Shown: in pieces, positions 2,410-63,210 of the stretch
Layout of the letters: every line of letters begins with the position of its first letter
How positions within the stretch are numbered: the stretch's first letter is position 1
Source: Pyrobaculum sp.
GTDB taxonomy: Archaea > Thermoproteota > Thermoprotei > Thermoproteales > Thermoproteaceae
Assembly (NCBI GenBank): GCA_038879095.1
Contig: JAVZUI010000003.1
Coordinates: 9,640 to 73,639 of the forward strand
DNA: 64,000 nucleotides
Reading direction: 5' to 3'
Program-made: the position numbers and the translations under genes
Notes under the pieces: model-generated
The model's input: the letters and a program-made list of their open reading frames with translations, nothing else
The model's database searches: none
Told to the model about the DNA's origin: nothing

Positions 2410-2791
2410 GCTGAGCCCCGAGGCCAAGGAGGAGGTGGTGGATAAGATTAGGCGTGTGTTGGAGGGGGAGGGGGCCGTGTCGTTTGCCTACCTCTTCGGA
2501 AGCTTTCTAGAGGGCGGCCCCTTTAGAGATGTGGACGTGGGCGTCTACCTAGGCGTCGAGACGGACCCCATCGAAGCCGCAGTATACGCCGAGGAGCTAT
2601 CGGCCAAGCTCAGCCGCGAGGTGGGCCTCCCCGTGGACGTCGTCGTGCTGAACTTCGCCCCGTCGTGGATAAAGAGGGCGGCGTTAGAAGGCCGGCCGCT
2701 AGTCGTAAGGGACGAGGCCAAGTGGGCCGCCCTCTGGGCGTGCCTAATCGACGAGGAGTACCTATTCAAAACCGCGTTTGGAGAGAATTAA
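2393..2791 (+). CDS. Nucleotidyltransferase-domain protein (MNT-type partner of HEPN/DUF86)
   Basis: 'FAYLFGSFLEGGPFRDVDVGVYL' matches the GSx10-12D.D minimal NTase motif. The ATG at 2393 overlaps the DUF86 3' end. Confidence 0.75.
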   Translation: MLRWFELSPEAKEEVVDKIRRVLEGEGAVSFAYLFGSFLEGGPFRDVDVGVYLGVETDPIEAAVYAEELSAKLSREVGLPVDVVVLNFAPSWIKRAALEGRPLVVRDEAKWAALWACLIDEEYLFKTAFGEN

Positions 2792-4564: not shown

Positions 4565-5053
4565 GTGCTCTCCAAGCCCTTGATCGACCTGGCGCGTTAT
4601 AGAGAGGTTAGGCTTAGGGAGGCGCTCTACGAGGCGGAGCTGGCGGAGCGGTTTTTAGAAGAGGGCTTGGTCCGCAACGCCGCCGGGAAGGCGTTCCAGG
4701 CCTGGAAGGCCCTCGTCGCCGCATACGCCGTAGACAAAATTGAGGATCTGAGGAAGGCGTACCCCGGCACGAAGAGGCTGAGAGGCGGAAGGCGCGCGGT
4801 GGAGAAGGCGGTGTGGGTGGTGGCAATCATGCCAACGACTCAGCTGAAAAAAGTGGCTCAAATAGTCGGCGGAGAGGTGGACGCATACACCGACAAGGCG
4901 CTTCGCATAAACGAGTACAGGTACAACGGCCCTGACCCCCAGGGCGTGTCGAGCATATACCCAGACGACTAGTCCGCGGCCAGAGACGTCAAAGCCCTAG
5001 CCCAGAAGGTCCGGGAGCTAGCCGCCGTGGCGTCCGGCGGATGGCGCCCCTAA
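4565..5053 (+). pseudogene. PaREP1/PaREP8-family (HEPN-like) protein with an in-frame TAG at 4970-4972
   Basis: 'REALYEAELAERFLEEGLVRNAAGKAFQAWKALVAAYA' is paralogous to the ORF at 13370. The 26 codons after the TAG stay in frame and align with the paralog's C-terminus. The gene may simply be a shorter intact ORF (4565-4972). Confidence 0.6.
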
Positions 5054-5502: not shown

Positions 5503-5718
5503 ATGCGGCGGATCGAGGTTACGATAATACCTCAGAGGTGTAAGGGGTGTCCATACTGCGAGGAAGCTTTCCCGGAGTTGTTCAAAGTCAACAAGGTCGT
5601 CACGCTCGCCAGCGGAGAACACAGGGCATATCTGCCGATAGAGTACTTGCCTAAGGTCCAGAGGGCGTTCTTTAGCTGTCCAAACGGCGGGATTTCGTAT
5701 CGGATAGTCCTTGCATAG
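5503..5718 (+). CDS. Small single-cluster ferredoxin (CxxCxxC...CP type)
   Basis: 71 aa with 'RCKGCPYCEEAFPELF' and a distal 'SCPNGGI'. TATA-like 'AAAATATATAT' lies about 25 nt upstream. It directly precedes the monooxygenase genes. Confidence 0.55.
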   Translation: MRRIEVTIIPQRCKGCPYCEEAFPELFKVNKVVTLASGEHRAYLPIEYLPKVQRAFFSCPNGGISYRIVLA

Positions 5719-5870
5719 CGACGCGCCGTATCTAATACTCGGCTCAATTAATTTTTCTCTTCTGAAATAGATGATGTTCAATTTTAAATATTTAAGAAGT
5801 TGTTAAATTTAATCCGAATGAGAACTTTTTACTTTTGGACAAGTTTAAATACAAATTTAGACTGTTAGAC

Positions 5871-6660
5871 ATGCCTAATTTAGAGCCTAAAGAGCCTAGG
5901 TTGCCCACGAGGGACGAGTTCTATGACTTGGCTAACAAGTTCGAGTGGACGCCTAAGTACGTAAGTGAGGAGGAGCTGTTTCCCGTGGACATGCATGGTC
6001 TGCCCTACTTGCCCATAGACGTGTGGGCCGAGACCTACGACGCGCCGTATAAGGTGTTGTATAGGGAGTACGTCAAGAACCAGAGGTCGAAGGACCAGAT
6101 GGTGTTCGCGGTGAGGGACGCCGCTGCCAGGGCGGAGCTGGACAGGAAGCTAGACCCTGTGTACCACGGGGGAGCTTTTTGTTTTCACATAACCGCAATC
6201 CCCATACCAGAGTACACAGCTGTGGTTGGAGAGGGGCGCATGGCTAGGTTTGGCAAGTCCGGCGAGTGGCGCAACTTGGCCACATTCGGCATGATGGACG
6301 AGACAAGGCACGCCCAGTTGCAGATACTGCTGGCCCACGACAAGATTGGCATTAACCCCAAGTTCGCCTTTGGCCACAAGCTCTTCTGGGTAGACGGGTG
6401 GGTTTCGGTTTTCGCCCGTAAGTTCTTCGACGATATTATAACTGCGGCTGACGCCGTGGAAAACGCCTTGATGTTAACCTTCGGCTTCGGGGTTCACAAA
6501 CTTGCAATTCATCGCCTACGCCGCCATGGCCAACAAGGCCGGCGATTTCATGTTCGCAAGCACCACCGCAAGCATACAGACAGACGAGTCTCGCCACGCG
6601 CAGATAGGCCACCCTGTTCTGAAGACGTACGCAGATATTGCGAAGCTAAGTTCTAGGTGA
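5871..6660 (+). pseudogene. Soluble diiron monooxygenase hydroxylase alpha subunit, N-terminal half (frameshifted)
   Basis: 'PEY' followed 30 residues later by 'DETRH', and in the +1 frame 'GFTNLQFIAYAAMANKAGDFMFASTTASIQTDESRHAQ'. The reading frame changes at the G-run 6489-6492. The gene ends at TGA 6658-6660. Confidence 0.75.
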
Positions 6661-6666
6661 TTTTTT

Positions 6667-6676
6667 AAATTAATTT
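6667..6676. promoter_or_regulatory. Perfect palindrome AAATTAATTT upstream of the alpha C-half gene
   Basis: Lies in the 74-nt AT-rich spacer between the alpha halves, upstream of the TATA-like ATATATTTAAATT. Confidence 0.4.
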
Positions 6677-6734
6677 TTTGTCTTTTGAACTAATTTTGTG
6701 ATATATTTAAATTGAACAAAGTTATAATATATTA

Positions 6735-7661
6735 ATGGAACGAAAAAGTTTGGGAGAAACCAGGGAGCAAGTACGTGAGGCGCTGGCGGAACAACATAAG
6801 CTGATATCCACACGGTTGCTCAAGACTGTGGAATTTGCCACCAAGATCCGCGAGAGGGGGAGGCAGTATAAAGAGGCGGCGGAGTACTACATAGCGAAGT
6901 CCTTCTGGCTTAACTGGAGGGCCATAGCGGCCTTGACTGGGCCGTCCATGGACTACCTAACGCCGCTGGATGGCAGGATTATGTCCTTTAAGGAGTTCAT
7001 GAGGGAGTGGGTGGGCGCGCAGTTTAAGAGGCAACTGGAGGACTACGGGATCGAGTTGCCGTGGTACTGGAAGTACTGGGAGGCTGAGACCGAGTGGTGG
7101 CACCACGCCTTCGAGCTTGGCATATACCTGTGGAGGAGGACTTTGAATATACACAACAGAGGCCCGACCCCCGACGAGAGGAAGTGGCTGAACGAGAAGT
7201 ACGAAAACTGGGAGGAGAACTTCGGCAGGTACTGGGACCTCTACGCCAAGAACTACATAGAGGGGAGGCCGCCTCTGCCCAAGACGGCGCCGTTGTTATG
7301 TAATATGTGCCAGGTGCCTCTGATCAGCCTAAAGCCCGGCCGCCACGTCTTGATATACCAAGTGGAGTACAAAGGCAGGGTGTACAACTTCTGCTCCCCG
7401 GTGTGTATGTGGATATTTCTCAACGAGCCGCAGAGGTACGCCGGCCATATGTCGTACGTTGACAGAATTGCGGCCATGAAGATCAAGCTCAGCCCTGAGG
7501 CGCTTAAAAGCATTGAGAGGCTGTGGGACGAGATCATTTGGAACATGGGCTTCACAGAGGCAGGCGAGGCGGGGCTTGACCCCACCAACGGCGCGTGGGC
7601 CCTGTTGTACAAGGAGAAGGACCCCGAGTACGATAAAAGAGTCGCCCGCTGGACGTCATGA
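6735..7661 (+). CDS. Soluble diiron monooxygenase hydroxylase alpha subunit, C-terminal half (separate gene)
   Basis: 'ALTGPSMDYLTPLDGRIMSFKEFMREWVGAQFKRQLEDYGIELPWYW' matches the post-helix-F region of MmoX/DmpN-type alpha subunits. A YHS-like 'CNMCQVP...YKGRVYNFCSPVCMWIF' is present. It has its own AT-rich promoter. Confidence 0.85.
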   Translation: MERKSLGETREQVREALAEQHKLISTRLLKTVEFATKIRERGRQYKEAAEYYIAKSFWLNWRAIAALTGPSMDYLTPLDGRIMSFKEFMREWVGAQFKRQLEDYGIELPWYWKYWEAETEWWHHAFELGIYLWRRTLNIHNRGPTPDERKWLNEKYENWEENFGRYWDLYAKNYIEGRPPLPKTAPLLCNMCQVPLISLKPGRHVLIYQVEYKGRVYNFCSPVCMWIFLNEPQRYAGHMSYVDRIAAMKIKLSPEALKSIERLWDEIIWNMGFTEAGEAGLDPTNGAWALLYKEKDPEYDKRVARWTS

Positions 7662-8074
7662 GCGCCGTGCCCACGATCTTCATGCACGAAGAGGACTTTG
7701 TGTGGCAGGTCTTCTTCGTGCCGGCGGAGTTCACAGTGAAGCAGGCCACGGACTTCCTAATGTCGCTGATTACAGGAGCCACCGTGTGGCCTAAGAACAA
7801 GGAGGTGCGGATGGTTAAGTACAAGACCGGCGAGGTGCTTGACCCCAACGCGAAGTTCGGCGACGTGGTTAAGCCGGGGGAGCCCGTCTTGCTGGTCTGG
7901 TGGCCCCCCAAGGAGGAGTGGTGGAAGTCGAAGGACGACCCCGTCTTCAGATTGGCCCGGGAGACTGAGGAGCTTATGAAAACCAAGGCGCCTAGGTCGC
8001 CCATGGTGATATTCAAAGAGGAGTTCGAAAGGCTGAGCATCATCAAAAGGCTGGAACGGGAGGGCAAGATATGA
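7658..8074 (+). CDS. TmoB-like small (gamma) monooxygenase subunit with C-terminal extension
   Basis: The N-terminal 85 aa ('MSAVPTIFMHEEDFVWQVFFV...RMVKYKTGEVL...PGEPVLLVW') follow the pattern I recall for T4moB. ATGA overlap with the upstream gene. Confidence 0.55.
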   Translation: MSAVPTIFMHEEDFVWQVFFVPAEFTVKQATDFLMSLITGATVWPKNKEVRMVKYKTGEVLDPNAKFGDVVKPGEPVLLVWWPPKEEWWKSKDDPVFRLARETEELMKTKAPRSPMVIFKEEFERLSIIKRLEREGKI

Positions 8075-8469
8075 TCACCGTCACCGTTGGCGACTATCCC
8101 GGCGACTACGTAGCCGTCTGCAACGTGGACGAGCTTGTGGACGGAGAGGCGCAGGTGTACAAGGTGGGGCAGTACGAGGTGTACGTGGTGTTTAAAGACG
8201 GCGAGATTAGGGCGTACTACGGCAGATGCCCACACGCCTTCGGCGAGCTGGCCCCCTCCGACTTCGACGGGGAGAAGATAGTGTGCAACGTCCACCAGTG
8301 GGAGTTCGAGCCCCTCACCGGCGTCTCCATAAACCCCAAGGGCTCCCGCCTCTTTGCCTTGAAACACGAGGTGAGAGACGGCGTACTCTACGTAAAGGTG
8401 CCGAAGATGCCCGCGTCGGAGTTTAAGGAGAAGTACTTCAAGATGTACGGGGGGGAGGGCCATGAGTGA
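8071..8469 (+). CDS. Rieske [2Fe-2S] ferredoxin (TmoC/TouC-like)
   Basis: 'CPHAFGEL' and 'CNVHQWEF' (CxH-x17-CxxH). 132 aa. ATGA overlap. Confidence 0.85.
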   Translation: MITVTVGDYPGDYVAVCNVDELVDGEAQVYKVGQYEVYVVFKDGEIRAYYGRCPHAFGELAPSDFDGEKIVCNVHQWEFEPLTGVSINPKGSRLFALKHEVRDGVLYVKVPKMPASEFKEKYFKMYGGEGHE

Positions 8470-8812
8470 GGCTGCGGTCCGGGAGTGGGCGCCTGAGCTG
8501 GAGCAGTACCTGATAACTGAAGACAAGCTGCCCAAGGACTTGGTGGGCCCCGTCTTCATGAAGAGGGAGCTGGCCATATACGCCACGTTGGCGATTGCCG
8601 AAGACAACCCGGACACCTTCGTGGGGGTGCTGGACAGAGGGCTTTACATAAGAGTGGTGGGCAACAAGAGGCTGACGTTGAGGCGGAGGACGCTTGAGGA
8701 CTTGGCAGGCAGGGCCGTGAGGTTCCCCGGAGAGGTGGAGGAGATGATGTCGGCGTTCGCCGGTAAAATTAGGGTTACTGGAGAAGAAATATTGTGGTAC
8801 CTAGAGCTATGA
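8462..8812 (+). CDS. MmoB/DmpM-family monooxygenase effector protein
   Basis: 'VGPVFMKRELA...AEDNPDTFVGVLDRGLYIRVVGNKRLTLRRRTLEDLAGR...MSAFAGKI' is typical of TmoD/MmoB effectors. Confidence 0.8.
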   Translation: MSEAAVREWAPELEQYLITEDKLPKDLVGPVFMKRELAIYATLAIAEDNPDTFVGVLDRGLYIRVVGNKRLTLRRRTLEDLAGRAVRFPGEVEEMMSAFAGKIRVTGEEILWYLEL

Positions 8813-9930
8813 GCTGGGACGAAGTCTACAAAAAGATATTTGCCAAGGCCTCTTTCAACGAGAAGTTCTTCCGCGACGTGGAGTACCAGGGCTACAAGAG
8901 GACTTGGGTCACGTGGCCCATGCTGGAGAAGAAGATCGGCCGGAAGAGGCCTAGCGAGTACCAAGCGGTGAGCTACGCGCTGTCTTACTGGTCTCCTGAC
9001 CCCAACTCGCCCACGTATAGATACCTGGGCACGCCCTTTGAGCTAGGCACAGACTACCACATACAGAAGTGGTATATCTACTTCAGAGACCGGTCTCCGC
9101 TAGTCTCGGCAGTGGTCCAGGGAGGCGGTTGGCACGACTACCACGACCCACACGAGCTGGTCTACTGGAAGTACAACACAATGATGGACGAGGAGGAAAC
9201 ATTCGTCGATAGGCTATTGGAACAGATCGTGGCCACGAAACACGACACAAAGCTCTCGGAGGAACTGTTGAAGTTCTACAGAGACTACTACGACCCGCTC
9301 CGCTTCGTCTGGCACGCAATGCAGATGCACTGCGCCTACCTCTCTCAAATGGCCCCCACCTCCACTGTGCTGAACATATTTACGTTTATGGCCATGGACT
9401 ACTTGAGGAGGGTGCAGAGGATTGCCCAGAGAGTCAAGATGTTAGACATAGTGTACCCAGAATTCGGCTTCGGCCGGGCGGGGAGGAGGCAGTTTGAAGA
9501 GGACCCACACCTCCAGCCCACTAGACAAGTGTTAGAACAAATGCTAGTGGCTTACGACTACACAGAGGCCCTGGCCTCCTTCGCGCTGGCGGTGAAGCCC
9601 GCCTTAGACGCAATCTATTTGTCGGGATTCGCCAAGCTGGCTGAGCTGAATGGAGACAGGTACTTAGGCCAGATACACCTATCCTTCTTGAAGGATAGCC
9701 AACGCCACAGAGATCAGTTAGTGGCGTTGTTTAAGTACGCGTTTGAGAAAGCGCCGTCGGCCAAGGACGTGGTTAGGGGAATTGCAGACAGGTGGAGGAG
9801 GGCGGTGAGAGACGCCGCGAGGGCGCTAGGCCCCGTCTTGGAGTCCATGCCGGCGAAACTGCCGCTGGACGCCGTGGTGGCGGAGGTAGAGGAGGAGTGG
9901 AGAAGGCTGGACTCCGACATAGGGCTATGA
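8809..9930 (+). CDS. Soluble diiron monooxygenase hydroxylase beta subunit
   Basis: About 373 aa and ferritin-like helical, with 'WHDYHDPHELVYWKYNTMMDEEETFVDRLL' typical of TmoE/DmpL beta subunits. The ATG at 8809 overlaps the effector stop (ATGA). Confidence 0.75.
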   Translation: MSWDEVYKKIFAKASFNEKFFRDVEYQGYKRTWVTWPMLEKKIGRKRPSEYQAVSYALSYWSPDPNSPTYRYLGTPFELGTDYHIQKWYIYFRDRSPLVSAVVQGGGWHDYHDPHELVYWKYNTMMDEEETFVDRLLEQIVATKHDTKLSEELLKFYRDYYDPLRFVWHAMQMHCAYLSQMAPTSTVLNIFTFMAMDYLRRVQRIAQRVKMLDIVYPEFGFGRAGRRQFEEDPHLQPTRQVLEQMLVAYDYTEALASFALAVKPALDAIYLSGFAKLAELNGDRYLGQIHLSFLKDSQRHRDQLVALFKYAFEKAPSAKDVVRGIADRWRRAVRDAARALGPVLESMPAKLPLDAVVAEVEEEWRRLDSDIGL

Positions 9931-10388
9931 GTAGCCGGGAGCTTGTGGTGGGGGCTCTAAGGCAGGTGTACGACCCCGAGCTCCCTGAAAATATTTACGA
10001 CCTCGGCCTCATAAGAGAGGTCTACCTAGACGAGGCCAATAGAAGAGTGAAGGTGACGATGTTGTTCACGTCTGGGAGGATGTGCCCCGTGGCCGACATG
10101 ATGGCGGTGCAGGTGAAATACGCCATTAAACGCGCCCTACCTGAGTACGACGTAGACGTCAAGGTGGACTTTGAGACTAGGTGGACGCCTAAGATGGCCA
10201 CCCCGGAGGGGAGGAGGGCCTTAGAGGAGATTTTTGGAAGGGAGTACGTCGAATCTCTGTCGAGGGGCAAGGTCGTCGTGAGGGTACAACAGCCGCCGCC
10301 GGACTTCGACCCCATAGCGTATATGAGAGAAAGAGTAGAGGCCAGGTATAAAGTCTTTAAGGAGTGGCTAGAGCGCAACAAGGTGTAA
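9927..10388 (+). CDS. DUF59 (MIP18/PaaD/SufT-like) Fe-S or metal-assembly protein
   Basis: 'VYDPELPENIYDLGLIREVYLDE...VKVTMLFTSGRMCPVADMM' is the canonical DUF59 core. ATGA overlap with the beta subunit stop. Confidence 0.75.
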   Translation: MSSRELVVGALRQVYDPELPENIYDLGLIREVYLDEANRRVKVTMLFTSGRMCPVADMMAVQVKYAIKRALPEYDVDVKVDFETRWTPKMATPEGRRALEEIFGREYVESLSRGKVVVRVQQPPPDFDPIAYMRERVEARYKVFKEWLERNKV

Positions 10389-12172
10389 TGTCTTTTGTCG
10401 CCTTTTTTAAACAGATTCCCGATTTGAATTTTATTAGGCTTGACCCAGCCACTAAGAGAATCGTCAGAGAGGGCGTGCCCAACGTCATGAATCCCTTTGA
10501 CTACCACGCCATAGAGGGGGCCCTCTACCTTAGAGACGCCTTGGGGGGAAGGGCCGTGGCGGTCACCATGGGGCCGCCCAGTTTTAAACAGTCTGCGGAA
10601 GAGGCTCTGGCCATGGGCGTGGACTTGGTGGTCCATCTATCAGACAAGGCCTTTGCCGGAAGCGACACCTTGGCCACCTCAAGGGCACTGGCCCGCGCCG
10701 TGAAGGCATTTGCCCCGGATTACAAGGCAATATTTGCGGGCAAGTACTCGTGGGACGGCGACACGGGGCACGTGGGCCCCCAGACCGCCGAGCTTTTGGG
10801 CATTCCGCACGTAAGCGGCGTCGTGGAGGTCAGGATAAAAGGCGAAAGGGCGTCGGTGAGGAGAGAGGCGGAGGACGGCGAAGAGGAGCTGGAGGTGGAA
10901 CTGCCAGCATTGTTCACAGTGACCGACAGGGCCTTTAACCCAAGGCCTCCGGGCAAGCCAAAGGGCCGCTACGTAGTGGCCACCGCCGCAGACATCGGCG
11001 TAGATCTTTCCGAAGTGGGGGCCGCCGGGTCGCCCACTGTGGTGGAGGACTTATACGAAGAGAGGTGGGAGAGGGCCGGCGGCGTGGCGGTAGACGCCCG
11101 AAACGACCCAGATATAGGCGCTGAGGCGCTGTGGCGCTGGCTTAAGACAGTGGTTTCTTCTGCGGATCGGGGAGGCGCCGTCAGAGAGGCGCCCGTTAGG
11201 GAGAGAGGTCCCCGAGTGGTGGCGGTGGTGGCCGATGACAAGTGGGACGGGGGGCTTAGGAGGGTGTCTCTAGAGCTTTTAGGGAAGGCGGTGGAGCTGG
11301 CCGAGGCGGTGGGGGGCACCGTCGTTGCGCTATACGGCGGCTTAGAGGACCCCAGGACCCTAATTGCACACGGCGCGGACGAGGTGGTGTGGATAAGAGA
11401 GGCAGACCCCTTTGACATATACGCCCACGGGGAGGCGCTGGCGGAGTTTATACTTAAACGCAAGCCCTGGGCCGTGCTGGCCCCCTCCACCACCTACGGG
11501 AGGGACCTCATGTCGAGAGTTGCGGCGAGGCTGGGCCTAGGGTTGACCGCAGACTGTGTGGACTTCTCGGTTAGGGGGGGCGAGCTGTTGCAACACAAGC
11601 CCGCGTTCGGCGGAGGCGTCGTGTCTATTATACGGTCCAAGACGTACCCCCAGATGGCCACCGCGAGGCCCGGCATGTTCGAACCGCTGGCCCCAAACCC
11701 TAAGAGGAGTGGAGAAGTTTTAGAAATCAAGGCGCGCCCGAGGATGAGGACCACCTCGAGGACCCCCCGAGCCTCCGAGTGGCCAGACCCCCAAGAGGCC
11801 GGGGTGGTGGTGGGCGTTGGGAGGGGGTTTAAGAAGCCCGAAAACTTAAAGCCGGCCTTAGACTTGGCCAAGGCGCTGGGCGCGGCGGTGGCAGCCACTA
11901 GAAACGTGGTGCTGGCCGGCTGGCTTCCGTACCGGCTACAGGTAGGGGTCTCCGGCAAGGCCATAGCCCCCTTGGCCTACCTCGCCCTGGCAATTAGAGG
12001 CGACGTGAACCACGTGGTGGGGATCAGGAGGGCGAGGCACATAGCCGCCGTGAACATCAACCCCAGGGCCGAGATATTTAAAATCGCAGAGCTCGGCGTA
12101 GTGGGGGACGTCAATAAGATCGTCCCCCTCCTCTTAGAACGAGCGGTTAAGGAGCCGCTCTTTAAAAATTAA
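10388..12172 (+). CDS. Fused electron transfer flavoprotein, beta-alpha (FixA-FixB type) in one polypeptide
   Basis: The N-terminal half is ETF-beta-like ('NPFDYHAIEGAL...GSDTLATSRALARAV...DGDTGHVGPQTAELLGIPHV'). The C-terminal half is ETF-alpha-like ('TTYGRDLMSRVAARLGLGLTADC', 'QVGVSGKAIAPLAYLALAIRGDVNHVVGI'). TAATG overlap with the DUF59 stop. Confidence 0.85.
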   Translation: MSFVAFFKQIPDLNFIRLDPATKRIVREGVPNVMNPFDYHAIEGALYLRDALGGRAVAVTMGPPSFKQSAEEALAMGVDLVVHLSDKAFAGSDTLATSRALARAVKAFAPDYKAIFAGKYSWDGDTGHVGPQTAELLGIPHVSGVVEVRIKGERASVRREAEDGEEELEVELPALFTVTDRAFNPRPPGKPKGRYVVATAADIGVDLSEVGAAGSPTVVEDLYEERWERAGGVAVDARNDPDIGAEALWRWLKTVVSSADRGGAVREAPVRERGPRVVAVVADDKWDGGLRRVSLELLGKAVELAEAVGGTVVALYGGLEDPRTLIAHGADEVVWIREADPFDIYAHGEALAEFILKRKPWAVLAPSTTYGRDLMSRVAARLGLGLTADCVDFSVRGGELLQHKPAFGGGVVSIIRSKTYPQMATARPGMFEPLAPNPKRSGEVLEIKARPRMRTTSRTPRASEWPDPQEAGVVVGVGRGFKKPENLKPALDLAKALGAAVAATRNVVLAGWLPYRLQVGVSGKAIAPLAYLALAIRGDVNHVVGIRRARHIAAVNINPRAEIFKIAELGVVGDVNKIVPLLLERAVKEPLFKN

Positions 12173-12175
12173 TTT
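12166..12175. promoter_or_regulatory. Perfect palindrome AAATTAATTT upstream of the alcohol dehydrogenase gene
   Basis: Overlaps the ETF stop codon, 78-88 nt before ATG 12254. Confidence 0.4.
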
Positions 12176-12253
12176 TTTAACATTATATATCAATTATACT
12201 TTTTTAAATTATTTTTTAGAAAAAATTAAATTTTATAATATTCATTTTTAGAC

Positions 12254-13342
12254 ATGCGCGCGGCATTATTAACCCAGTTCCAAAAGCCTCTTGAGATAAA
12301 GGAGGTGGACGTGCCGAGGCCCAAGAGAGGCGAGGTTCTGATACAAGTACAGGCCTGTGGCATATGTAGGTCAGATTGGCACCTCTGGAGAGGCGACCCC
12401 TCGCTGGTGGCGTACATGGAGTGGTCCGGCGGGAGGCTGCCCATAATTCCAGGCCACGAGGTGGCTGGAAAGGTGGTGGAAGTAGGCGAAGGGGTCGAGA
12501 ACGTCCAGGTGGGCGACGTGGTGGTGGCCCCCGCCTCGTCCACAGGCGACAACAGGTCCTGCAGGTTCTGCAGGGAGGGCAACAGCAATATATGTGAACA
12601 TCTGTGGATACCCGGCTTCGGCACCCACGGCTGCTACGGCGAATATATGTTGGTCCCCGCCGGGTCCGTCGTAGACCTCGTGAAAGTCCCGCCGGGGGTA
12701 AGGCCTGAACACGCGGCAATTACTGGCTACGGGTTTGGGACGGCTTGGAACGCCCTGGTTGTTAAGGGAAGTATTAAGCCCGGCGAGACCCTTCTGGTTA
12801 CCGGCGTGGGGGGAATGGGCCTCAGCGCGGTGGCCATCGCAGTGGCCTCAGGCGCCAAGGTGGTAGCCGTAGACGTCAACCCAGCCTCTGTGGACAAGGC
12901 CAGGAAACTGGGCGCAGTGGCGGCCTACCACTACTCCGGCGACCCGAAGGAGCTTGCCAAGCTGATCAACGAGGAGATAGTGAAGACCTACGGCATGGTG
13001 GACGCGGTATTCGACTCCACCGGCAACCCCGACGTACTCTCAGCCGTGCTCCCCGCAGTGAGACCCCAAGGCAGGGTACTACTGGCGGGGCTCATGATGA
13101 AAGGCAAGGAGATATGGCCACTCGCCTCCGACATAGTGGTGGCAAGGGAGTTGACCATACAGGGTGTGTTGATGCTGGCATCGCAGAAGTACGACAACAT
13201 CTTCAAGTTGATGACGGAGGGCAGGGTCAACCTAGAACCCGTCATATACAGAAGGATCTCGCTGGACGAGGTCAACGACGCCTACGACGAGATGACCAAA
13301 TATAAAAACGCCGGCCGTTTCGTAATTACTAAATTCCGCTAA
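12254..13342 (+). CDS. Zn-dependent alcohol dehydrogenase (MDR family)
   Basis: 'GICRSDWH', 'GHEVAGKVVEVGEGV', a structural-Zn cysteine cluster 'CRFCREGNSNIC', and a Rossmann motif 'VTGVGGMG'. Confidence 0.85.
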   Translation: MRAALLTQFQKPLEIKEVDVPRPKRGEVLIQVQACGICRSDWHLWRGDPSLVAYMEWSGGRLPIIPGHEVAGKVVEVGEGVENVQVGDVVVAPASSTGDNRSCRFCREGNSNICEHLWIPGFGTHGCYGEYMLVPAGSVVDLVKVPPGVRPEHAAITGYGFGTAWNALVVKGSIKPGETLLVTGVGGMGLSAVAIAVASGAKVVAVDVNPASVDKARKLGAVAAYHYSGDPKELAKLINEEIVKTYGMVDAVFDSTGNPDVLSAVLPAVRPQGRVLLAGLMMKGKEIWPLASDIVVARELTIQGVLMLASQKYDNIFKLMTEGRVNLEPVIYRRISLDEVNDAYDEMTKYKNAGRFVITKFR

Positions 13343-13369: not shown

Positions 13370-13867
13370 ATGTGCGTGGAACTAACAAAGCCTTGGATCG
13401 ACTTGGGGAAATACAAGAGGGATAGGCTAAGGGAGGCCCTCTACGAGGCGGAGCTGGCTGAGGAGTTTCTAAAAAACGGACTGTTGAGGAACGCCGCTGG
13501 GAAGGCCTTCCAAGCGGTCAAGGCTCTTCTAGCCGCAGTCGCCGTCGATCATAGAGATAAGATCGTGGCGTCTTTCAAGGGGAAGAGGAGGCTTGGGGAG
13601 GGCAAGGTGGTGGAGCGGGGGGACTGGATCATCGCCGTGATGCCCACTTCGAAAATGCGAGAGGTGGCGGCGCTTGTGGGAGACAGAGACCTGCGCCTAG
13701 CCGTCGAGCTTGCTCTAAACCTACACGAGTTTCAGTACAACGGCCTCGACAAAGACGCCGAGGTCTCCCGCTACTCTTCAGAAGAGCTTGTTAGAAAAGA
13801 CGTACTAGACGTGGTTAACTACGTCAAACGCGTCGCAAGCCAGCTTCCTGAAGCAACGTCAAGTTAG
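13370..13867 (+). CDS. PaREP1/PaREP8-family (HEPN-like) protein
   Basis: 'DRLREALYEAELAEEFLKNGLLRNAAGKAFQAVKALLAAVAV' is a paralog of the ORF at 4565. Confidence 0.75.
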   Translation: MCVELTKPWIDLGKYKRDRLREALYEAELAEEFLKNGLLRNAAGKAFQAVKALLAAVAVDHRDKIVASFKGKRRLGEGKVVERGDWIIAVMPTSKMREVAALVGDRDLRLAVELALNLHEFQYNGLDKDAEVSRYSSEELVRKDVLDVVNYVKRVASQLPEATSS

Positions 13868-14141: not shown

Positions 14142-15050
14142 ATGCGGCTGTTGACGTTTAGAAGGGGCGAAGTGCTGAAGGTGGGCCTCTGGAAGGATGG
14201 AAAGGTCCTAGACCTCCCAGAGGCGTATAAACAAGTGTTCGGCGCGTACGAGGCGCCGGACTTCCTCTACAGCATGAAGAAGCTTATTGCTGTTGGGGAG
14301 CCGGCCTTGGAGGTGGTGAGGAAGCTGGAGGCGAAGGCCAAGGGGCCGTTTTACCAGCCCTCCGAGATCGTGTGGGAGCCTCCTGTGCCGGACCCCGAGA
14401 AGATATTTGCCGTCGCCGTCAACTACAGAGCCCACGGCCAGGAGGCCGGCGTCAAGCCTCCTGAGAAGCCCTACTTCTTCCCCAAGTTCCCCAACGCCCT
14501 CGTCGGCCACGAGGGGCGCGTGGTTAAGCACAAGGTGGCACAAAAGGTGGACTGGGAGGTAGAGCTGGTGGTGGTGCTGGGCAGAGCTGGGAAGTACATC
14601 TCGCCGGAGGAGGCCCTCGACTACGTCTTCGGCTACGCCGTGGGCAACGACATCTCGATCAGAGACTGGCAGTTCCCGCCTGGGTGGCCGCAACAGCTGA
14701 ACCCATACGGCCAGAACTGGATATGGGGCAAGTCCATGGACACCGCCGCGCCGGTGGGGCCGTGGGTCGTGACGAGGGACGAGGTGCCTGACCCCAACCG
14801 CCTGGCGCTGAGGCTTTGGGTGAACGGCAACTTGGAGCAGGAGGGCAACACGTCGGAGCTCATCTTCAACGTCCAGCAGTTGATACACTGGGCCTCGCAG
14901 GGCATTACGCTGAAGCCCGGCGACCTAATATTCACAGGTACGCCGCCGGGGGTGGGCTTCCCCAAGGGCAAGTTCCTCAAGGGCGGGGACGTAGTCGAGG
15001 CGGAGGTGGAGAGGGTGGGCCGCCTTAGGAACTACGTAGTCGAGGAATGA
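14142..15050 (+). CDS. Fumarylacetoacetate hydrolase (FAH)-family hydrolase/hydratase/decarboxylase
   Basis: 'KIFAVAVNYRAH', 'YFFPKFPNALVGH', 'DWEVELVVVLG', 'GYAVGNDISIRDWQ' and 'PGDLIFTGTPPGVG' are the FAH C-terminal domain motifs. Confidence 0.85.
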   Translation: MRLLTFRRGEVLKVGLWKDGKVLDLPEAYKQVFGAYEAPDFLYSMKKLIAVGEPALEVVRKLEAKAKGPFYQPSEIVWEPPVPDPEKIFAVAVNYRAHGQEAGVKPPEKPYFFPKFPNALVGHEGRVVKHKVAQKVDWEVELVVVLGRAGKYISPEEALDYVFGYAVGNDISIRDWQFPPGWPQQLNPYGQNWIWGKSMDTAAPVGPWVVTRDEVPDPNRLALRLWVNGNLEQEGNTSELIFNVQQLIHWASQGITLKPGDLIFTGTPPGVGFPKGKFLKGGDVVEAEVERVGRLRNYVVEE

Positions 15051-16027
15051 AAGCCGCCTTTTTCGAGAGGCCGGGGGAGCTAAAGGTTGGCGACTTTCCC
15101 GACCCCGTAAGGCAACACGGAGAGGTTTTGGTCCGGGTCCTGGCGGCGGGGGTGAACCCCATAGACAGAGCCACCGTCTCGGGCGCAGTCTCTGCTAGCC
15201 CCATGCCCCACGTGCCCGGCGCGGAGTTCGTCGGCGAGGTGCTCGACCCCGGCACCAGCGAGTTTAAGAGAGGGGACAGGGTGGTGGTGTACAACAGGCT
15301 GTTCTGCGGCTCGTGCAGGCAGTGTCTGAGAGGAGAGACTCAGATATGTGAGAGGCTCGGCGGAATAATAGGAGTCGCCGCCCACGGAGGCTGGGCCGAG
15401 CTGGCGGCGGTGCCGTCGCGGAACTTGGTGAGGACCGCCGCGCCGGCCGAGGAGGTGGTGGGCCTGCCGGTGGGCGGGCTCACCGCTTTTAACATGTTGA
15501 GGCGGGCCGCCGTGTCTGTGGGCGACAGAGTGGCCGTGGTGGGCGCCACAGGCAACGTCGGCGTCTACGCAGTACAGCTGGCCAAGCTTATGGGCGCGTA
15601 CGTGGCGGCGGTGACGAGGAGGGCCGACCTACACGCCGCGCGGCTCAAAAGCCTCGGCGCCGACGAGGTCTTGACGCCGGAGGAGGCGAAAAAGGCCGGC
15701 CCCTTCGACGTGGTGGTAGATCCGGTGGGGGCGGGGACGTGGGAGCTGAGCTTCTCTCTACTGGCCAGAGGCGGAAGGTACGTCACGGCGGGCGCGCTGA
15801 CCGGCAGCGAGGTGAAGCTCGACTTGAGACGGCTGTACGGGGGCCAGTACTCGGTGCTGGGGAGCACCGGCGGGAGGAGGGCGGACTTAGAGCTCCTAGT
15901 CTCCCTGGCGGAGAGGGGCCTCTTGAAGACGCCAATATACAAGAGGTACCGCCTAGAGGAGGCGGCGGAGGCGCTGAAGGCCCTTGAAGGCCCGGAGAGG
16001 CTCGGCAAAGTCGTTATAACTATTTAA
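15047..16027 (+). CDS. Zn-type MDR oxidoreductase (alcohol dehydrogenase/quinone oxidoreductase-like)
   Basis: 'GVNPIDRATVSG', 'PGAEFVGEV', 'CGSCRQCLRGETQIC' and 'VVGATGNVG'. ATGA overlap with the FAH gene. Confidence 0.8.
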   Translation: MKAAFFERPGELKVGDFPDPVRQHGEVLVRVLAAGVNPIDRATVSGAVSASPMPHVPGAEFVGEVLDPGTSEFKRGDRVVVYNRLFCGSCRQCLRGETQICERLGGIIGVAAHGGWAELAAVPSRNLVRTAAPAEEVVGLPVGGLTAFNMLRRAAVSVGDRVAVVGATGNVGVYAVQLAKLMGAYVAAVTRRADLHAARLKSLGADEVLTPEEAKKAGPFDVVVDPVGAGTWELSFSLLARGGRYVTAGALTGSEVKLDLRRLYGGQYSVLGSTGGRRADLELLVSLAERGLLKTPIYKRYRLEEAAEALKALEGPERLGKVVITI

Positions 16028-16035
16028 ATTAATTT
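16026..16035. promoter_or_regulatory. Perfect palindrome AAATTAATTT upstream of the PaaA-like diiron gene
   Basis: Overlaps the MDR gene stop, 47-56 nt before ATG 16082. Confidence 0.4.
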
Positions 16036-16081
16036 GCATAATTTTTCGACACTTTTTTATCGCGTTGAGGACACGGAGGAT

Positions 16082-16885
16082 ATGTCCACCGCAGAGAAGT
16101 TGAGGCAGGCATACGAGGAGAAGAAGTACATACTTGCGGAGTTGGAGAAGTTGAAAAACGACAAGCAGTTCCTCGCCCAGTTTAAGACCCCGGTGGAGTT
16201 TACAGACTGGTTTAAGGCCTTTATCGACCCCCTGCTGTCTATACAGTACCAAATCGGCGCGTGGTGGATCCAAAACGCAGATGTGAAAAACGTCATCTCG
16301 TGGCTTAGGCAGGGGGTGTGGAACGAGTGGGCCGCCAACGTGGTGATCACTAAGTCCATCACGGAGTACCGCGACCTCATCGACGACGAGTTTTTCAACG
16401 TCTTCGCCCACCAGGTCTCAGACGAGGCGAGGCACTTCTACATCAGGACAAAGGTCTTGAGGATGTACGGCGGCTCTATGGAGGGGTTCCAGCCCATAAA
16501 GGAGTGGGCCCAGCTGTTTGAGTGGCCGCTGGCCTGCGCCTCGAAGCGCCTCGAGAGGCCGTACTTCCAGGCTAAGTTCACCGGCGGCTTCCAGACGGTG
16601 GAGCTCACGGCGACTGTTCAGCACAAGGGAATCGTGGACCACGCCTACGAGAACCCCGATATTTGGAAGGAGCCCTACAGAAGGGCCACGGAGGCGTTGG
16701 TGAGCTACTCGCGGGAGATAGAAGACGACGAGTCGTTCCACTGGACAATCGCCGAGAGGGTCTGGGCCAAATACGCCAAGACCGCCGAGATGAGGGCCGA
16801 GGTTTTAGACTGCGCGGTAGAGGCCTTGGAGCTCTCCACAGTTGCTAAGATAAGGAGGATAGAGGCGGCTGAGCGGGCTAGATGA
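16082..16885 (+). CDS. Ferritin-like diiron-carboxylate protein, PaaA/PaaC-like oxygenase subunit candidate
   Basis: Two ExxH motifs, 'SDEARH' and 'EDDESFHW', which resemble PaaA 'QDEAGH' and 'KEESFH'. Each has an upstream Glu candidate ('NEW', 'TVEL'). ATG at 16082 follows a GGAGG and a TATA-like T-rich box. Confidence 0.55.
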   Translation: MSTAEKLRQAYEEKKYILAELEKLKNDKQFLAQFKTPVEFTDWFKAFIDPLLSIQYQIGAWWIQNADVKNVISWLRQGVWNEWAANVVITKSITEYRDLIDDEFFNVFAHQVSDEARHFYIRTKVLRMYGGSMEGFQPIKEWAQLFEWPLACASKRLERPYFQAKFTGGFQTVELTATVQHKGIVDHAYENPDIWKEPYRRATEALVSYSREIEDDESFHWTIAERVWAKYAKTAEMRAEVLDCAVEALELSTVAKIRRIEAAERAR

Positions 16886-17202
16886 GGGTCGCCCTGGGGC
16901 CGCTGTCGGAGTTCGGCGAAAGGCCCAAGGTGAAGGTGGTGGGAAGGCGGCACTTCCTAGTGGTTAAAATAGGCGGCGAGGTCTACGTGGCGCAGTCCCT
17001 CTGCCCCCACGCCCGTTGGCCGCTGGGATTCGCCGGGAGGTGCTTCAAGGCGAGGGACGGCGAGCCCTATGTGGTCTGCGCCATACACGGAGGGGTGTGG
17101 AGCTTGAGGACTGGGTCCGGCACTGTGGAGGGGAGGCCAGCGCCTCCCCTCAAGGTCTACGAGGCCCGCGTTGAGGACGGCGTCGTCTATGTGCGGCTCT
17201 GA
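16882..17202 (+). CDS. Rieske [2Fe-2S] ferredoxin
   Basis: 'CPHARWPL' and 'CAIHGGVW' (CxH ... CxxH). 106 aa. ATGA overlap with the diiron gene. Confidence 0.8.
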   Translation: MRVALGPLSEFGERPKVKVVGRRHFLVVKIGGEVYVAQSLCPHARWPLGFAGRCFKARDGEPYVVCAIHGGVWSLRTGSGTVEGRPAPPLKVYEARVEDGVVYVRL

Positions 17203-61548: not shown

Positions 61549-61554
61549 GCGGCC

Positions 61555-63143: not shown

Positions 63144-63210
63144 AACCGGGCCGTGGTTAAAAGCTGTTTTTGTGCATTATATGCACTTATATATACTCCA
63201 AGTATTAGAC

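What the first reader, a model, noticed from the sequence alone, without database searches (positions are those of the whole stretch)
9927..12172. DUF59 protein and a single-chain ETF beta-alpha fusion translationally coupled to the monooxygenase: candidate assembly factor and electron-input module
- Seen: the DUF59 ATG overlaps the beta subunit stop (ATGA at 9927-9930). The ETF ATG overlaps the DUF59 stop (TAATG at 10386-10390).
- The ETF is one 594-aa polypeptide with a FixA-like half followed by a FixB-like half.
- Established: ETFs are normally heterodimers encoded by two genes. DUF59 domains occur in PaaD of the phenylacetyl-CoA diiron oxygenase and in Fe-S or metal-centre assembly proteins. 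TMO-type systems need a flavoprotein to reduce the Rieske ferredoxin.
- Inference: the fused ETF, perhaps with the small ferredoxin at 5503, replaces the missing TmoF-type reductase, and DUF59 assists metallocentre assembly. I am not aware of ETF-to-Rieske-to-diiron hydroxylase electron transfer being described.
Basis: inference. Interest (0 to 1): 0.65.

Follow-up and report, generated by a model that had tools for sequence, protein, structure and literature searches.

The report
ETF and DUF59 genes ending an archaeal monooxygenase operon
In a hot-spring Pyrobaculum, a toluene/phenol-type diiron monooxygenase operon ends with a small DUF59 metal-centre helper gene and a single-chain electron-transfer flavoprotein sitting where the usual NADH reductase gene would be, a conserved arrangement that suggests, but does not prove, a new way of feeding electrons to this enzyme class.

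Summary
ATGA (9927-9930) and TAATG (10386-10390) join beta-hydroxylase, DUF59 (153 aa, PF01883) and a 594-aa beta-alpha ETF fusion.

All seven genes from alphaC (6735) to ETF (12172) overlap at their junctions. Their order matches tmoABCDEF, with ETF in the reductase slot.

The beta-DUF59-ETF order recurs in every related Pyrobaculum-type locus recovered. Intact copies are under purifying selection (dN/dS 0.1-0.25). No TmoF- or TodA-type reductase is annotated in the window.

- Fused ETFs are widespread, and one (S. acidocaldarius SaETF) is characterised as a two-FAD, NADH-reducible, bifurcating-type ETF. In 80 other genomes they sit beside acyl-CoA dehydrogenases, FixC or FAD-oxidases, never SDIMO.
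- DUF59 next to TMO-like monooxygenases is not new. Sso1234 of S. solfataricus is induced 45-fold on phenol, and a Rhodococcus plasmid cluster also has one. Both use a TodA-type reductase.
- The ETF is frameshifted, degraded or deleted in several relatives, and the small ferredoxin is conserved in only one other lineage.

In this window the alpha-hydroxylase N-fragment carries a 5-nt deletion that removes an iron-ligand Glu codon.

ETF as the reductase is the best reading (about 0.5), but it is unproven.

The parts
5503..5718 (+). Small single-cluster 4Fe-4S-type ferredoxin (71 aa). It lies upstream of alphaN and is an optional part.
   Evidence: Pfam Fer4_15, E 3.9e-5. A homologue is found only in L005 (54% identity), not in the other related loci.
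5835..6660 (+). SDIMO alpha-hydroxylase N-terminal fragment. In this window it is frameshifted by a 5-nt deletion at about 6489 that removes the Glu of FGFETGFTN.
   Evidence: Pfam Phenol_Hydrox covers profile positions 1-177 of 230 only. Three-frame translation. Alignment with L001-L003, which carry an extra CGAGA and an intact 276-aa ORF.
6735..7661 (+). SDIMO alpha-hydroxylase C-terminal fragment with a YHS domain (308 aa). It is the first gene of the overlapping seven-gene run.
   Evidence: Pfam YHS, E 4.9e-13. 37% identical to the C-terminal half of a Rhodococcus toluene monooxygenase alpha subunit. The split alpha subunit is also annotated in S. solfataricus as Sso1227/1228.
7658..8074 (+). 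TmoB-like (gamma) subunit, 138 aa.
   Evidence: Pfam TmoB, E 4e-4, below the gathering score. Its position is conserved in all relatives.
8071..8469 (+). Rieske [2Fe-2S] ferredoxin (TmoC-like, 132 aa). Ligands are C53, H55, C72 and H75. It is the proposed electron acceptor of the ETF.
   Evidence: Pfam Rieske, E 7.8e-14. The CPH...CNVH motif was read from the translation.
8462..8812 (+). Effector or coupling protein (MmoB/DmpM family, 116 aa).
   Evidence: Pfam MmoB_DmpM, E 1.1e-17.
8809..9930 (+). SDIMO beta-hydroxylase (373 aa from ATG 8809).
   Evidence: Pfam Phenol_Hydrox, E 2.5e-53. Start taken from the gene calls on L001.
9927..10388 (+). DUF59 protein (153 aa). It has a DUF59 core with conserved Cys53 plus a clade-specific C-terminal helix (about residues 129-151).
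   Evidence: Pfam PF01883. PDB hits 1uwd, 2cu6 and 3lno. NCBIfam SUF_assoc and PaaD matches fall below their cut-offs. AF2 model pLDDT 85.5. Alignments.
10388..12172 (+). Single-chain ETF (594 aa). The EtfB-like half is about residues 1-250, a low-confidence linker about 255-275, and the EtfA-like half about 276-590. It is the last gene of the operon.
   Evidence: Pfam. PDB phmmer. AF2 and Foldseek. Family alignment with invariant R372, R505, Y531 and H542.
12173..12253 (+). AT-rich intergenic spacer. An oligo-T run lies directly after the ETF stop, and a TATA-like TTTTATAA lies about 20 nt before the ADH ATG. This is the probable end of the transcription unit and the promoter of the next gene.
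   Evidence: Read from the sequence. Function is inferred from general archaeal promoter and terminator features.
12254..13342 (+). Zn-dependent alcohol dehydrogenase (362 aa). In most relatives this gene sits between alphaN and alphaC instead.
   Evidence: Pfam ADH_N and ADH_zinc_N. Position in relatives.

Best explanation
The two genes are the last cistrons of a seven-gene, junction-overlapping transcription unit: alphaC, TmoB-like, Rieske, effector, beta, DUF59, ETF. It encodes a TMO-type soluble diiron monooxygenase in a Pyrobaculum species.

Proposed mechanism for the ETF (inferred):
- The single-chain, bifurcating-type ETF takes a hydride from NADH at its beta-half FAD.
- It passes single electrons through its alpha-half FAD to the Rieske ferredoxin.
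- The Rieske ferredoxin reduces the diiron hydroxylase.
- The ETF is therefore a non-homologous replacement of the TmoF/TodA-type NADH:ferredoxin oxidoreductase.

Proposed role for DUF59 (inferred): the protein is a specialised paralogue of SufT/PaaD-like factors that helps mature or stabilise a metal centre of the oxygenase system. This role is shared with Sulfolobales and some actinobacterial TMO-like clusters and does not depend on the ETF.

What is shown: gene identities, operon structure, conserved synteny and purifying selection.
What is inferred: every electron-transfer step and the maturation role.
For: Gene identities and overlaps.

Colinearity with the TMO operon:
- The known order is alpha, gamma, ferredoxin, coupling protein, beta, reductase (SDIMO review PMC11825192).
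- Here the ETF occupies the last position.

Conservation of beta-DUF59-ETF:
- L005 (ETF 70% identical), L006-8 (61%), L009/L098/L099 (62%), L096 (62%), L094 (58%), and P. aerophilum L092/L093 (57-59%).
- These ETFs form one clade on a long stem in an NJ tree.

Purifying selection on unsaturated pairs:
- ETF dN/dS is 0.10-0.12.
- DUF59 dN/dS is 0.12.
- These values are similar to beta and Rieske.

No alternative reductase nearby:
- No Pyr_redox_2 or FNR-type reductase appears in the Pfam-annotated gene tables that cover most of the window.
- None appears in the flanks of the relatives.

ETF type:
- The ETF resembles bifurcating ETFs more than canonical ones. The alpha half scores 150-180 bits against 93-101, and the beta half 126-158 against 61-70.
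- It keeps the Arg that contacts the bifurcating FAD (R372) and the ET-FAD residues R505, S522, Y531 and H542.
- The fused S. acidocaldarius homologue binds two FADs and is reduced by NADH (PMC12042025).

DUF59:
- Sso1234 follows tmoE in S. solfataricus and is induced 45-fold on phenol (PMC7820114).
- A Rhodococcus koreensis plasmid TMO-like cluster ends with a TodA-type reductase followed by a DUF59 protein.
- The conserved Cys53 is retained.
Against: - There is no biochemical or transcript evidence.
- The ETF is not universally maintained. It is deleted to a 31-codon stub in L095 while SDIMO and DUF59 stay intact.
- It is fragmented in L097 and frameshifted in both P. aerophilum assemblies, in L010 and in L100. 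Some of these may be assembly errors.
- Known ETF partners are dehydrogenases and quinone reductases, and none is a Rieske ferredoxin (literature searches found no precedent).
- SaETF's ET-FAD ASQ/HQ couple is -74 to -127 mV. That is somewhat above the roughly -170 mV I recall for T4moC, so transfer may need the low-potential flavin or pull from O2 chemistry.
- A TodA-type reductase could be encoded elsewhere in the genome.
- In this particular window the alphaN gene is frameshifted, so the system may be inactive here.
Confidence: 0.5

Rival explanations
1. The true reductase is a conventional NADH:ferredoxin oxidoreductase (TodA-like, as in S. solfataricus Sso1225) encoded elsewhere. The ETF is a dispensable or decaying passenger at the end of the operon.
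For: - The ETF is deleted in L095 while the SDIMO and DUF59 remain intact.
- It is degraded in L097, frameshifted in L092/L093 (one frameshift shared by both strains), and frameshifted in L010 and L100.
- Sulfolobales and Rhodococcus relatives use a TodA-type reductase.
Against: - Intact ETF copies show clear purifying selection (dN/dS 0.10-0.25).
- Their position is conserved over deep divergence (ETF 57-70% identity).
- No TodA/TmoF-type gene lies within 10 kb of any locus or anywhere in the window.
- Several of the frameshifts lie in low-quality assemblies. L100 also breaks alphaN and beta, and L092 differs from L093 at an A-run.
Confidence: 0.2
2. The ETF works in its classical direction or with other partners of the surrounding aromatic-catabolic island. 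It may serve other Rieske-type oxygenases or ferredoxins nearby, or collect electrons from a dehydrogenase for a quinone reductase. On this reading it is only co-regulated with the monooxygenase.
For: - More distant fused ETFs sit next to FAD-linked oxidases (25 loci), acyl-CoA dehydrogenases (17) or FixC-like genes (10) (PMC12042025).
- The islands contain further Rieske proteins and a Rieske-oxygenase-like gene without their own reductase.
- An acyl-CoA dehydrogenase gene starts at about 63181 in the window.
Against: - No acyl-CoA dehydrogenase, FixCX or ETF-QO gene is adjacent to the ETF in any SDIMO-linked locus.
- The acyl-CoA dehydrogenase in the window is about 51 kb away.
- The ETF is always fixed behind beta-DUF59, while the other island genes vary between lineages.
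Confidence: 0.15
3. The ETF truly bifurcates. NADH electrons are split between the Rieske/diiron branch (exergonic) and a low-potential ferredoxin such as the one at 5503-5718. The exergonic branch then drives formation of reduced ferredoxin.
For: - The ETF has a bifurcating-type sequence and keeps the bifurcating-FAD Arg.
- A small ferredoxin gene sits upstream of alphaN in the window and in L005.
Against: - The ferredoxin is absent from all other related loci.
- There is no precedent and no data.
- Coupling an oxygenase to ferredoxin reduction would waste or complicate stoichiometry.
Confidence: 0.08
4. DUF59 is a structural or docking subunit of the oxygenase complex, using its conserved C-terminal helix, rather than a metal-centre maturation factor.
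For: - A highly conserved C-terminal amphipathic helix (FDPIAYMRERVEARY..FKEWLER) is specific to the archaeal SDIMO-type subfamily. It is absent from the Pyrobaculum DUF59 paralogue P0203 (127 aa), which I take to be the housekeeping copy.
- The operon position and overlap suggest stoichiometric co-translation.
Against: - The helix also occurs in Metallosphaera homologues, so it is not an ETF adaptor.
- The invariant DUF59 Cys is retained, as in SufT-type factors.
- As I recall, PaaD is not part of the core PaaABC complex.
Confidence: 0.15

Closest known systems
Four-component toluene monooxygenases (T4MO tmoABCDEF, ToMO touABCDEF; group 1 SDIMO in PMC11825192)
   Same: - Same component set and order: alpha, TmoB-like gamma, Rieske ferredoxin, effector, beta.
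- The diiron ligand motifs are present in the intact alleles.
- A redox gene follows beta.
   Different: - The alpha subunit is split into two genes.
- A DUF59 gene is inserted after beta.
- The terminal gene is an ETF fusion instead of the FNR-like [2Fe-2S] flavoprotein TmoF.
- The host is a hyperthermophilic archaeon.
Saccharolobus solfataricus SsoMO cluster Sso1225-Sso1234 (PMC7820114)
   Same: - The alpha subunit is split (Sso1227/1228).
- TmoB, TmoC, TmoD and TmoE are present.
- A DUF59 'metal-sulfur cluster biosynthetic enzyme' (Sso1234) follows.
- The cluster is phenol-induced.
   Different: - The reductase is a TodA-type ferredoxin-NAD+ reductase (Sso1225) upstream.
- No ETF is reported in the cluster.
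SaETF, the fused EtfB-EtfA of Sulfolobus acidocaldarius (PMC12042025)
   Same: - Single-chain beta-alpha architecture of about 600 aa.
- Bifurcating-type sequence signature.
- Conserved flavin-site residues.
   Different: - The neighbourhoods of SaETF and its homologues contain acyl-CoA dehydrogenases, ETF-QO, FixCX or transporters.
- The Pyrobaculum clade is embedded in an SDIMO operon.
- Identity to SaETF was not measured here.
PaaD of the phenylacetyl-CoA epoxidase PaaABCDE, and SufT
   Same: - DUF59 fold with a conserved Cys.
- Genetic linkage to a diiron oxygenase (PaaD).
- Presumed maturation role.
   Different: - Scores are far below the NCBIfam PaaD and SUF_assoc cut-offs.
- It has its own conserved C-terminal helix.
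- It is linked to an SDIMO, not to Paa or Suf genes.
Rhodococcus koreensis plasmid NZ_CP070611.1 TMO-like cluster
   Same: - Contains alpha, TmoB, effector, beta and Rieske genes, and ends with a DUF59-containing protein.
- 30-41% identity to the window's components.
   Different: - It has a TodA-type FAD-dependent oxidoreductase and no ETF.
- The DUF59 domain is at the C-terminus of a 253-aa protein.
- The alpha subunit is unsplit.

Membership tests
Electron-transfer flavoprotein, fused EtfB-EtfA, bifurcating (group 2-like) type | EtfB-type domain followed by an EtfA N-domain and an EtfA FAD-binding domain in one chain | tested here: met
   Pfam PF01012 twice plus PF00766. phmmer matches EtfB chains over residues 1-247 and EtfA chains over 283-585. 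The AF2 model with Foldseek hits both subunits.
Electron-transfer flavoprotein, fused EtfB-EtfA, bifurcating (group 2-like) type | Flavin-site residues: the Arg contacting N5 of the bifurcating FAD (R146 in AfETF), and the ET-FAD set of Arg/Lys, Ser/Thr, Tyr and His | tested here: met
   R372 (GRD motif), R505, S522, Y531 and H542 are invariant or conserved in the 18-sequence alignment. They align with the corresponding positions in 7koe_B and 5ol2_A. The residue list comes from PMC12042025. The mapping is by alignment, not by structure with cofactor.
Electron-transfer flavoprotein, fused EtfB-EtfA, bifurcating (group 2-like) type | Closer to bifurcating than to canonical ETFs | tested here: met
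   The alpha half scores 153-180 bits against 4kpu_A, 6fah_A, 7qh2_A, 5ol2_A and 7koe_B, versus 93-101 against 1efp, 1efv and 1o94. The beta half scores 126-158 versus 61-70.
Electron-transfer flavoprotein, fused EtfB-EtfA, bifurcating (group 2-like) type | Two bound FADs, reduction by NADH, electron bifurcation | not testable with these tools
   This needs the purified protein. It has been shown only for the homologue SaETF.
Electron-transfer flavoprotein, fused EtfB-EtfA, bifurcating (group 2-like) type | Usual genomic partners (acyl-CoA dehydrogenase, FixCX or ETF-QO, lactate-dehydrogenase-like FAD oxidase) adjacent | tested here: not met
   None is adjacent in the window or in any SDIMO-linked relative. 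They are adjacent in distant fused ETFs.
SDIMO reductase component (TmoF/MmoC type) | FNR-like FAD/NAD(P)H domains plus a plant-type [2Fe-2S] domain | tested here: not met
   The ETF carries only ETF domains. It is therefore at most a functional analogue, not a member.
SDIMO reductase component (TmoF/MmoC type) | Encoded in the oxygenase operon after the beta-hydroxylase gene | tested here: met
   Gene order in the window and in all relatives. The reference order comes from PMC11825192.
SDIMO reductase component (TmoF/MmoC type) | NADH-dependent reduction of the Rieske ferredoxin or hydroxylase | not testable with these tools
   A biochemical assay is required.
DUF59 / SufT / PaaD metal-centre assembly factors | PF01883 fold with the conserved Cys in the T-x-x-x-C-P loop | tested here: met
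   Pfam E 1e-13. Cys53 is invariant. Foldseek TMt is 0.76-0.86 to 3cq1, 3lno, 2cu6 and 1uwd.
DUF59 / SufT / PaaD metal-centre assembly factors | Equivalog-level match to SufT (SUF_assoc) or PaaD | tested here: not met
   SUF_assoc scores 69 bits against a cut-off of 143. PaaD scores 43-56 bits against cut-offs of 108-180. This is a distinct subfamily with only about a dozen 90%-identity clusters matching over the full length, C-terminal helix included.
DUF59 / SufT / PaaD metal-centre assembly factors | Linkage to a diiron oxygenase operon (as for PaaD) | tested here: met
   It follows the beta gene in every related locus. The same holds for Sso1234 in S. solfataricus and for the Rhodococcus plasmid cluster.
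TMO-type (group 1) soluble diiron monooxygenase | Alpha and beta Phenol_Hydrox subunits, a TmoB-like subunit, a Rieske ferredoxin and an MmoB-type effector in one cluster | tested here: met
   Pfam. 30-41% identity to annotated Rhodococcus toluene monooxygenase components.
TMO-type (group 1) soluble diiron monooxygenase | Intact diiron ligand motifs (two E...EXXH) | tested here: not met
   In this window the Glu of FGFETGFTN is lost and the frame shifts. The motifs are intact in sister contigs L001-L003.

The most novel reading that the evidence does not exclude
A single-chain, bifurcating-type ETF is the physiological electron-input module of an archaeal diiron monooxygenase. It would use the strongly exergonic Rieske/diiron/O2 branch to drive simultaneous reduction of a low-potential ferredoxin from NADH. 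That would be flavin-based electron bifurcation coupled to an oxygenase.
Probability: 0.08. Interest if true: 0.85.

Novelty: new variant of a known kind. Interest (0 to 1): 0.55.

Why it matters
If the ETF is the reductase, several things follow.
- It would add Rieske ferredoxins and diiron monooxygenases to the short list of ETF partners. That list currently holds acyl-CoA, lactate and caffeyl-CoA dehydrogenase-type enzymes and quinone reductases.
- It would show a third, unrelated solution, after the FNR-type and TodA-type reductases, for delivering NADH electrons to TMO-type enzymes.
- It would supply a thermostable, all-flavin, single-polypeptide reductase for hyperthermophilic oxygenase biocatalysis.

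The recurrent DUF59 gene next to TMO-like SDIMOs in Pyrobaculum, Saccharolobus and Rhodococcus points to a neglected accessory factor. That factor may explain the poor heterologous activity of such enzymes.

Tried and rejected
- A scan of one genome per GTDB species with the beta-hydroxylase alignment found no relative. This SDIMO clade is therefore absent from the species representatives, or the patterns missed it.
- The second GTDB scan, with the fused-ETF alignment, gave 80 loci. None had SDIMO or DUF59 genes within 10 kb. The idea that fused ETFs in general travel with SDIMOs is rejected.
- The idea that the small ferredoxin at 5503 is a conserved partner is rejected. It is present only in L005.
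- The idea that the DUF59 C-terminal helix is an ETF-docking element is rejected. The helix is also present in Metallosphaera homologues. Their gene context could not be checked because the look-ups were exhausted.
- The idea that an ETF paralogue, FixC or a TodA-like gene lies elsewhere in the window is rejected. None was found.
- The look-up of the Bathyarchaeia homologue P0057 failed.
- The Garcia Costas 2017 ETF classification paper is not held. The bifurcating versus canonical call therefore rests on PDB score contrasts and on residues listed in PMC12042025.
- Literature searches for an ETF-SDIMO or ETF-Rieske link found nothing relevant.
- Modelling an ETF-Rieske complex is not possible with the single-chain predictor.

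Full report
**1. Observation**

- The beta-hydroxylase ORF ends with TGA at 9928-9930 and overlaps the ATG at 9927 of a 153-aa ORF.
- That ORF ends with TAA at 10386-10388 and overlaps the ATG at 10388 of a 594-aa ORF, which ends at 12172.

Domain evidence:
- The small protein matches PF01883 (DUF59/FeS_assembly_P, E 1e-13).
- The large protein has two PF01012 ETF domains plus PF00766.

Further support for the ETF assignment:
- phmmer against PDB sequences aligns residues 1-247 with EtfB chains and 283-585 with EtfA chains.
- An AlphaFold2 model is confident (pLDDT 88, pTM 0.86). Its only segment below pLDDT 50 is residues 260-263, in the linker.
- Foldseek recovers ETF alpha and beta chains.

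The overlaps are not unusual for this genome, because many same-strand neighbours overlap by 1-8 nt (gene table). All six junctions from alphaC (6735) to the ETF overlap: 7658/7661, 8071/8074, 8462/8469, 8809/8812, 9927/9930 and 10388. This defines one tight seven-gene unit.

An oligo-T run and an AT-rich spacer with a TATA-like element follow the ETF stop, ahead of the next gene, a Zn-ADH.

**2. The system and the organism**

The neighbouring genes are:
- an alpha-hydroxylase split into an N fragment and a C fragment that carries a YHS domain;
- a TmoB-like protein;
- a Rieske ferredoxin with ligands C53, H55, C72 and H75;
- an MmoB/DmpM effector;
- a beta-hydroxylase.

This order is that of TMO operons: alpha, gamma, ferredoxin, coupling protein, beta, reductase (PMC11825192). 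DUF59 is inserted after beta, and the ETF sits in the reductase position.

The window's EF-2 falls in a 90%-identity cluster whose named members are Pyrobaculum sp.. PaREP1 genes flank the locus.

The surrounding island carries FAA-hydrolase, a second ADH, further Rieske proteins and a PEP-utilising enzyme. In sister contigs it also carries LigAB-type dioxygenase genes. This is an aromatic-catabolic context.

**3. A defect in this window**

The alphaN ORF changes frame at about 6489.
- Three contigs that are 99.95% identical (L001-L003) carry five extra bases (CGAGA).
- Those bases restore FGFETGFTN and give an intact 276-aa protein.
- The deletion removes the codon of a conserved iron-ligand Glu.

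As given, the window either has a pseudogenised alphaN or contains an assembly error.

**4. Is the linkage conserved?**

Yes. The order beta-DUF59-ETF was found in the following places:
- the window clade (L001-L004);
- L005 (ETF 70% identical);
- L006-L008 (61%);
- L009/L098/L099 (62%);
- L096 (62%);
- L094 (58%, cut by the contig end);
- two Pyrobaculum aerophilum assemblies, L092 and L093;
- L097 and L100.

DUF59 follows beta in every case.

The ETFs of these loci form one clade on a long stem in an NJ tree that has no support values.

Pairwise dN/dS on unsaturated pairs is 0.10-0.12 for the ETF and 0.12 for DUF59. These values are comparable with beta (0.06) and Rieske (0.07-0.09).

**5. 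What qualifies the interpretation**

(a) The fusion is common.
- The protein search returned thousands of homologues of about 600 aa, from Acidobacteriota, Alphaproteobacteria and Bathyarchaeia, and the GTDB genome scan added many others such as Collinsella, Bacteroidales, Clostridia and Dehalococcoidia.
- In 80 species genomes the single-ORF ETF is 31-42% identical, and no SDIMO or DUF59 gene lies within 10 kb.
- The neighbours there are FAD-linked oxidases (25 loci), acyl-CoA dehydrogenases (17) and FixC-like genes (10).
- An Acidobacteriota homologue has none of these neighbours.
- The S. acidocaldarius fused ETF has been purified. It binds two FADs, is reduced by NADH, and is classed as a bifurcating ETF.
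- The neighbourhood survey in that paper lists ACAD, ETF-QO, FixCX and transporters, and no monooxygenase (PMC12042025).

(b) DUF59 next to TMO-like SDIMOs is already visible elsewhere.
- In S. solfataricus P2 the cluster is Sso1225 (a TodA-type reductase), Sso1227/1228 (split TmoA), Sso1229-1233, and then Sso1234, annotated 'metal-sulfur cluster biosynthetic enzyme'. Sso1234 is induced 45-fold on phenol (PMC7820114).
- A Rhodococcus koreensis plasmid has, in order, alpha, TmoB, effector, beta, Rieske, an FAD-dependent oxidoreductase and a DUF59 protein.
- DUF59 is therefore a recurrent accessory that does not depend on the type of reductase.
- The Pyrobaculum protein is a specialised paralogue. 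It scores below the SufT and PaaD cut-offs.
- It has a conserved C-terminal helix that is shared with Metallosphaera homologues but absent from the Pyrobaculum DUF59 paralogue P0203 (127 aa), which I take to be the housekeeping copy.

(c) The ETF is not always kept.
- In L095 only its first 31 codons remain, and homology to the sister contig L094 stops there. An acetyl-CoA synthetase gene follows.
- In L097 it is in three lower-identity pieces.
- In the P. aerophilum assemblies it has one shared frameshift, plus an A-run indel in one strain.
- L010 and L100 also show frameshifts. L100 additionally breaks alphaN and beta, so that assembly is probably poor.

(d) The small ferredoxin at 5503 is found only in L005.

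**6. Mechanism**

No Pyr_redox_2 (TodA-type) or FNR-type (TmoF-type) reductase appears in the Pfam-annotated gene tables that cover most of the window. None appears in the 10-kb flanks of the relatives.

The ETF is the only flavoprotein in the operon.
- It is of the NADH-accepting type by similarity. The alpha half scores 153-180 bits against bifurcating ETFs and 93-101 against canonical ones. The beta half scores 126-158 against 61-70.
- It retains R372, which aligns with the Arg that hydrogen-bonds the bifurcating flavin, and the ET-flavin residues R505, S522, Y531 and H542.

The most economical reading is this path: NADH to beta-half FAD, to alpha-half FAD, to the Rieske [2Fe-2S] cluster, to the diiron centre. 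That would be a non-orthologous displacement of the reductase. It fits the known poor congruence of SDIMO reductase phylogeny with hydroxylase phylogeny.

Thermodynamics allow this but do not demand it.
- SaETF's couples are about -21 mV (ET OX/ASQ), -74 to -127 mV (ET ASQ/HQ) and about -260 mV (bifurcating flavin).
- From my own recollection, the T4moC Rieske centre is near -170 mV.

Every transfer step is inferred.

**7. Rival explanations**

- A conventional reductase is encoded elsewhere and the ETF is dispensable. This is supported by the ETF losses in relatives.
- The ETF serves other enzymes of the island.
- The ETF truly bifurcates, with a ferredoxin as second acceptor.
- DUF59 is a structural subunit rather than a maturation factor.

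Confidences and refuting results for each are given in the Rival explanations section.

**8. Novelty and verdict**

I found no description of an ETF in an SDIMO operon, or of ETF-to-Rieske transfer, in the searchable literature.

- The components are all known families.
- The DUF59 linkage is an unremarked but pre-existing pattern.
- The ETF-in-the-reductase-slot arrangement is a new variant of a known kind of system. It is restricted, so far, to a Pyrobaculum-type clade.

It is a well-posed, directly testable hypothesis rather than a demonstrated mechanism. Interest is moderate (0.55).

Noticed in passing
window 6480-6495 (alphaN, 5835-6660): A 5-nt deletion (CGAGA) relative to three 99.95%-identical contigs. 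It frameshifts the alpha-hydroxylase N-fragment and removes the Glu codon of FGFETGFTN. It is either a strain-specific pseudogene or an assembly error.
   Followed up: yes
window 6657-6734 and 12173-12253; L005, L006, L009, L092, L094: The alpha-hydroxylase is encoded as two genes. In most relatives the Zn-ADH gene lies between the two halves (alphaN-ADH-alphaC). In the window's lineage the ADH sits after the ETF, and only an AT-rich spacer of about 75 nt separates the halves. This is a local rearrangement.
   Followed up: partly
L095 9465-9700 (GCA_053492815.1): The ETF gene is reduced to a 31-codon stub. An acetyl-CoA synthetase gene follows. A separate conventional EtfA-like gene lies about 8 kb downstream on the other strand (32% identity, 17260-17793).
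   Followed up: partly
L092 / L093 10562 and about 10800 (Pyrobaculum aerophilum assemblies): The ETF is interrupted by a frameshift shared by both assemblies. L092 has a second one at an A-run (AAA versus AAAA). This could be homopolymer instability or sequencing error.
   Followed up: partly
L096 2563-3617 and 4577-6438: Partial tandem duplication of alphaN plus the first 91 codons of the ADH, upstream of the complete alphaN-ADH pair.
   Followed up: no
window 14142-18868: Further catabolic genes lie downstream. They are FAA-hydrolase (14142-15050), a second Zn-ADH (15047-16027), an unannotated 267-283-aa protein, a 106-aa Rieske protein (16882-17202) that overlaps a 565-aa PEP-utilising enzyme (17171-18868), and an inositol-monophosphatase-family gene. 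The Rieske plus PEP-utiliser pairing recurs in relatives (L092, L095).
   Followed up: no
window 1684-2791, 4565-4972, 13370-13867: A HEPN/HepT-like gene with a nucleotidyltransferase (MNT) toxin-antitoxin-type pair lies upstream. Two PaREP1-family genes bracket the monooxygenase locus.
   Followed up: no
window 60925-64000: This stretch holds an HdrD-like Fe-S protein (61555-62805), a DsrC-like gene, a faint NarI-like membrane protein, and an acyl-CoA dehydrogenase that starts at about 63181 and runs off the window. That dehydrogenase is the only classical ETF partner in the window, about 51 kb from the ETF.
   Followed up: no
L006, L092, L094, L095 upstream of alphaN: A protoglobin gene and a MarR-family regulator sit immediately upstream of the SDIMO cluster in several relatives but not in the window. 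This may be an O2-sensing or regulatory module for the operon.
   Followed up: no
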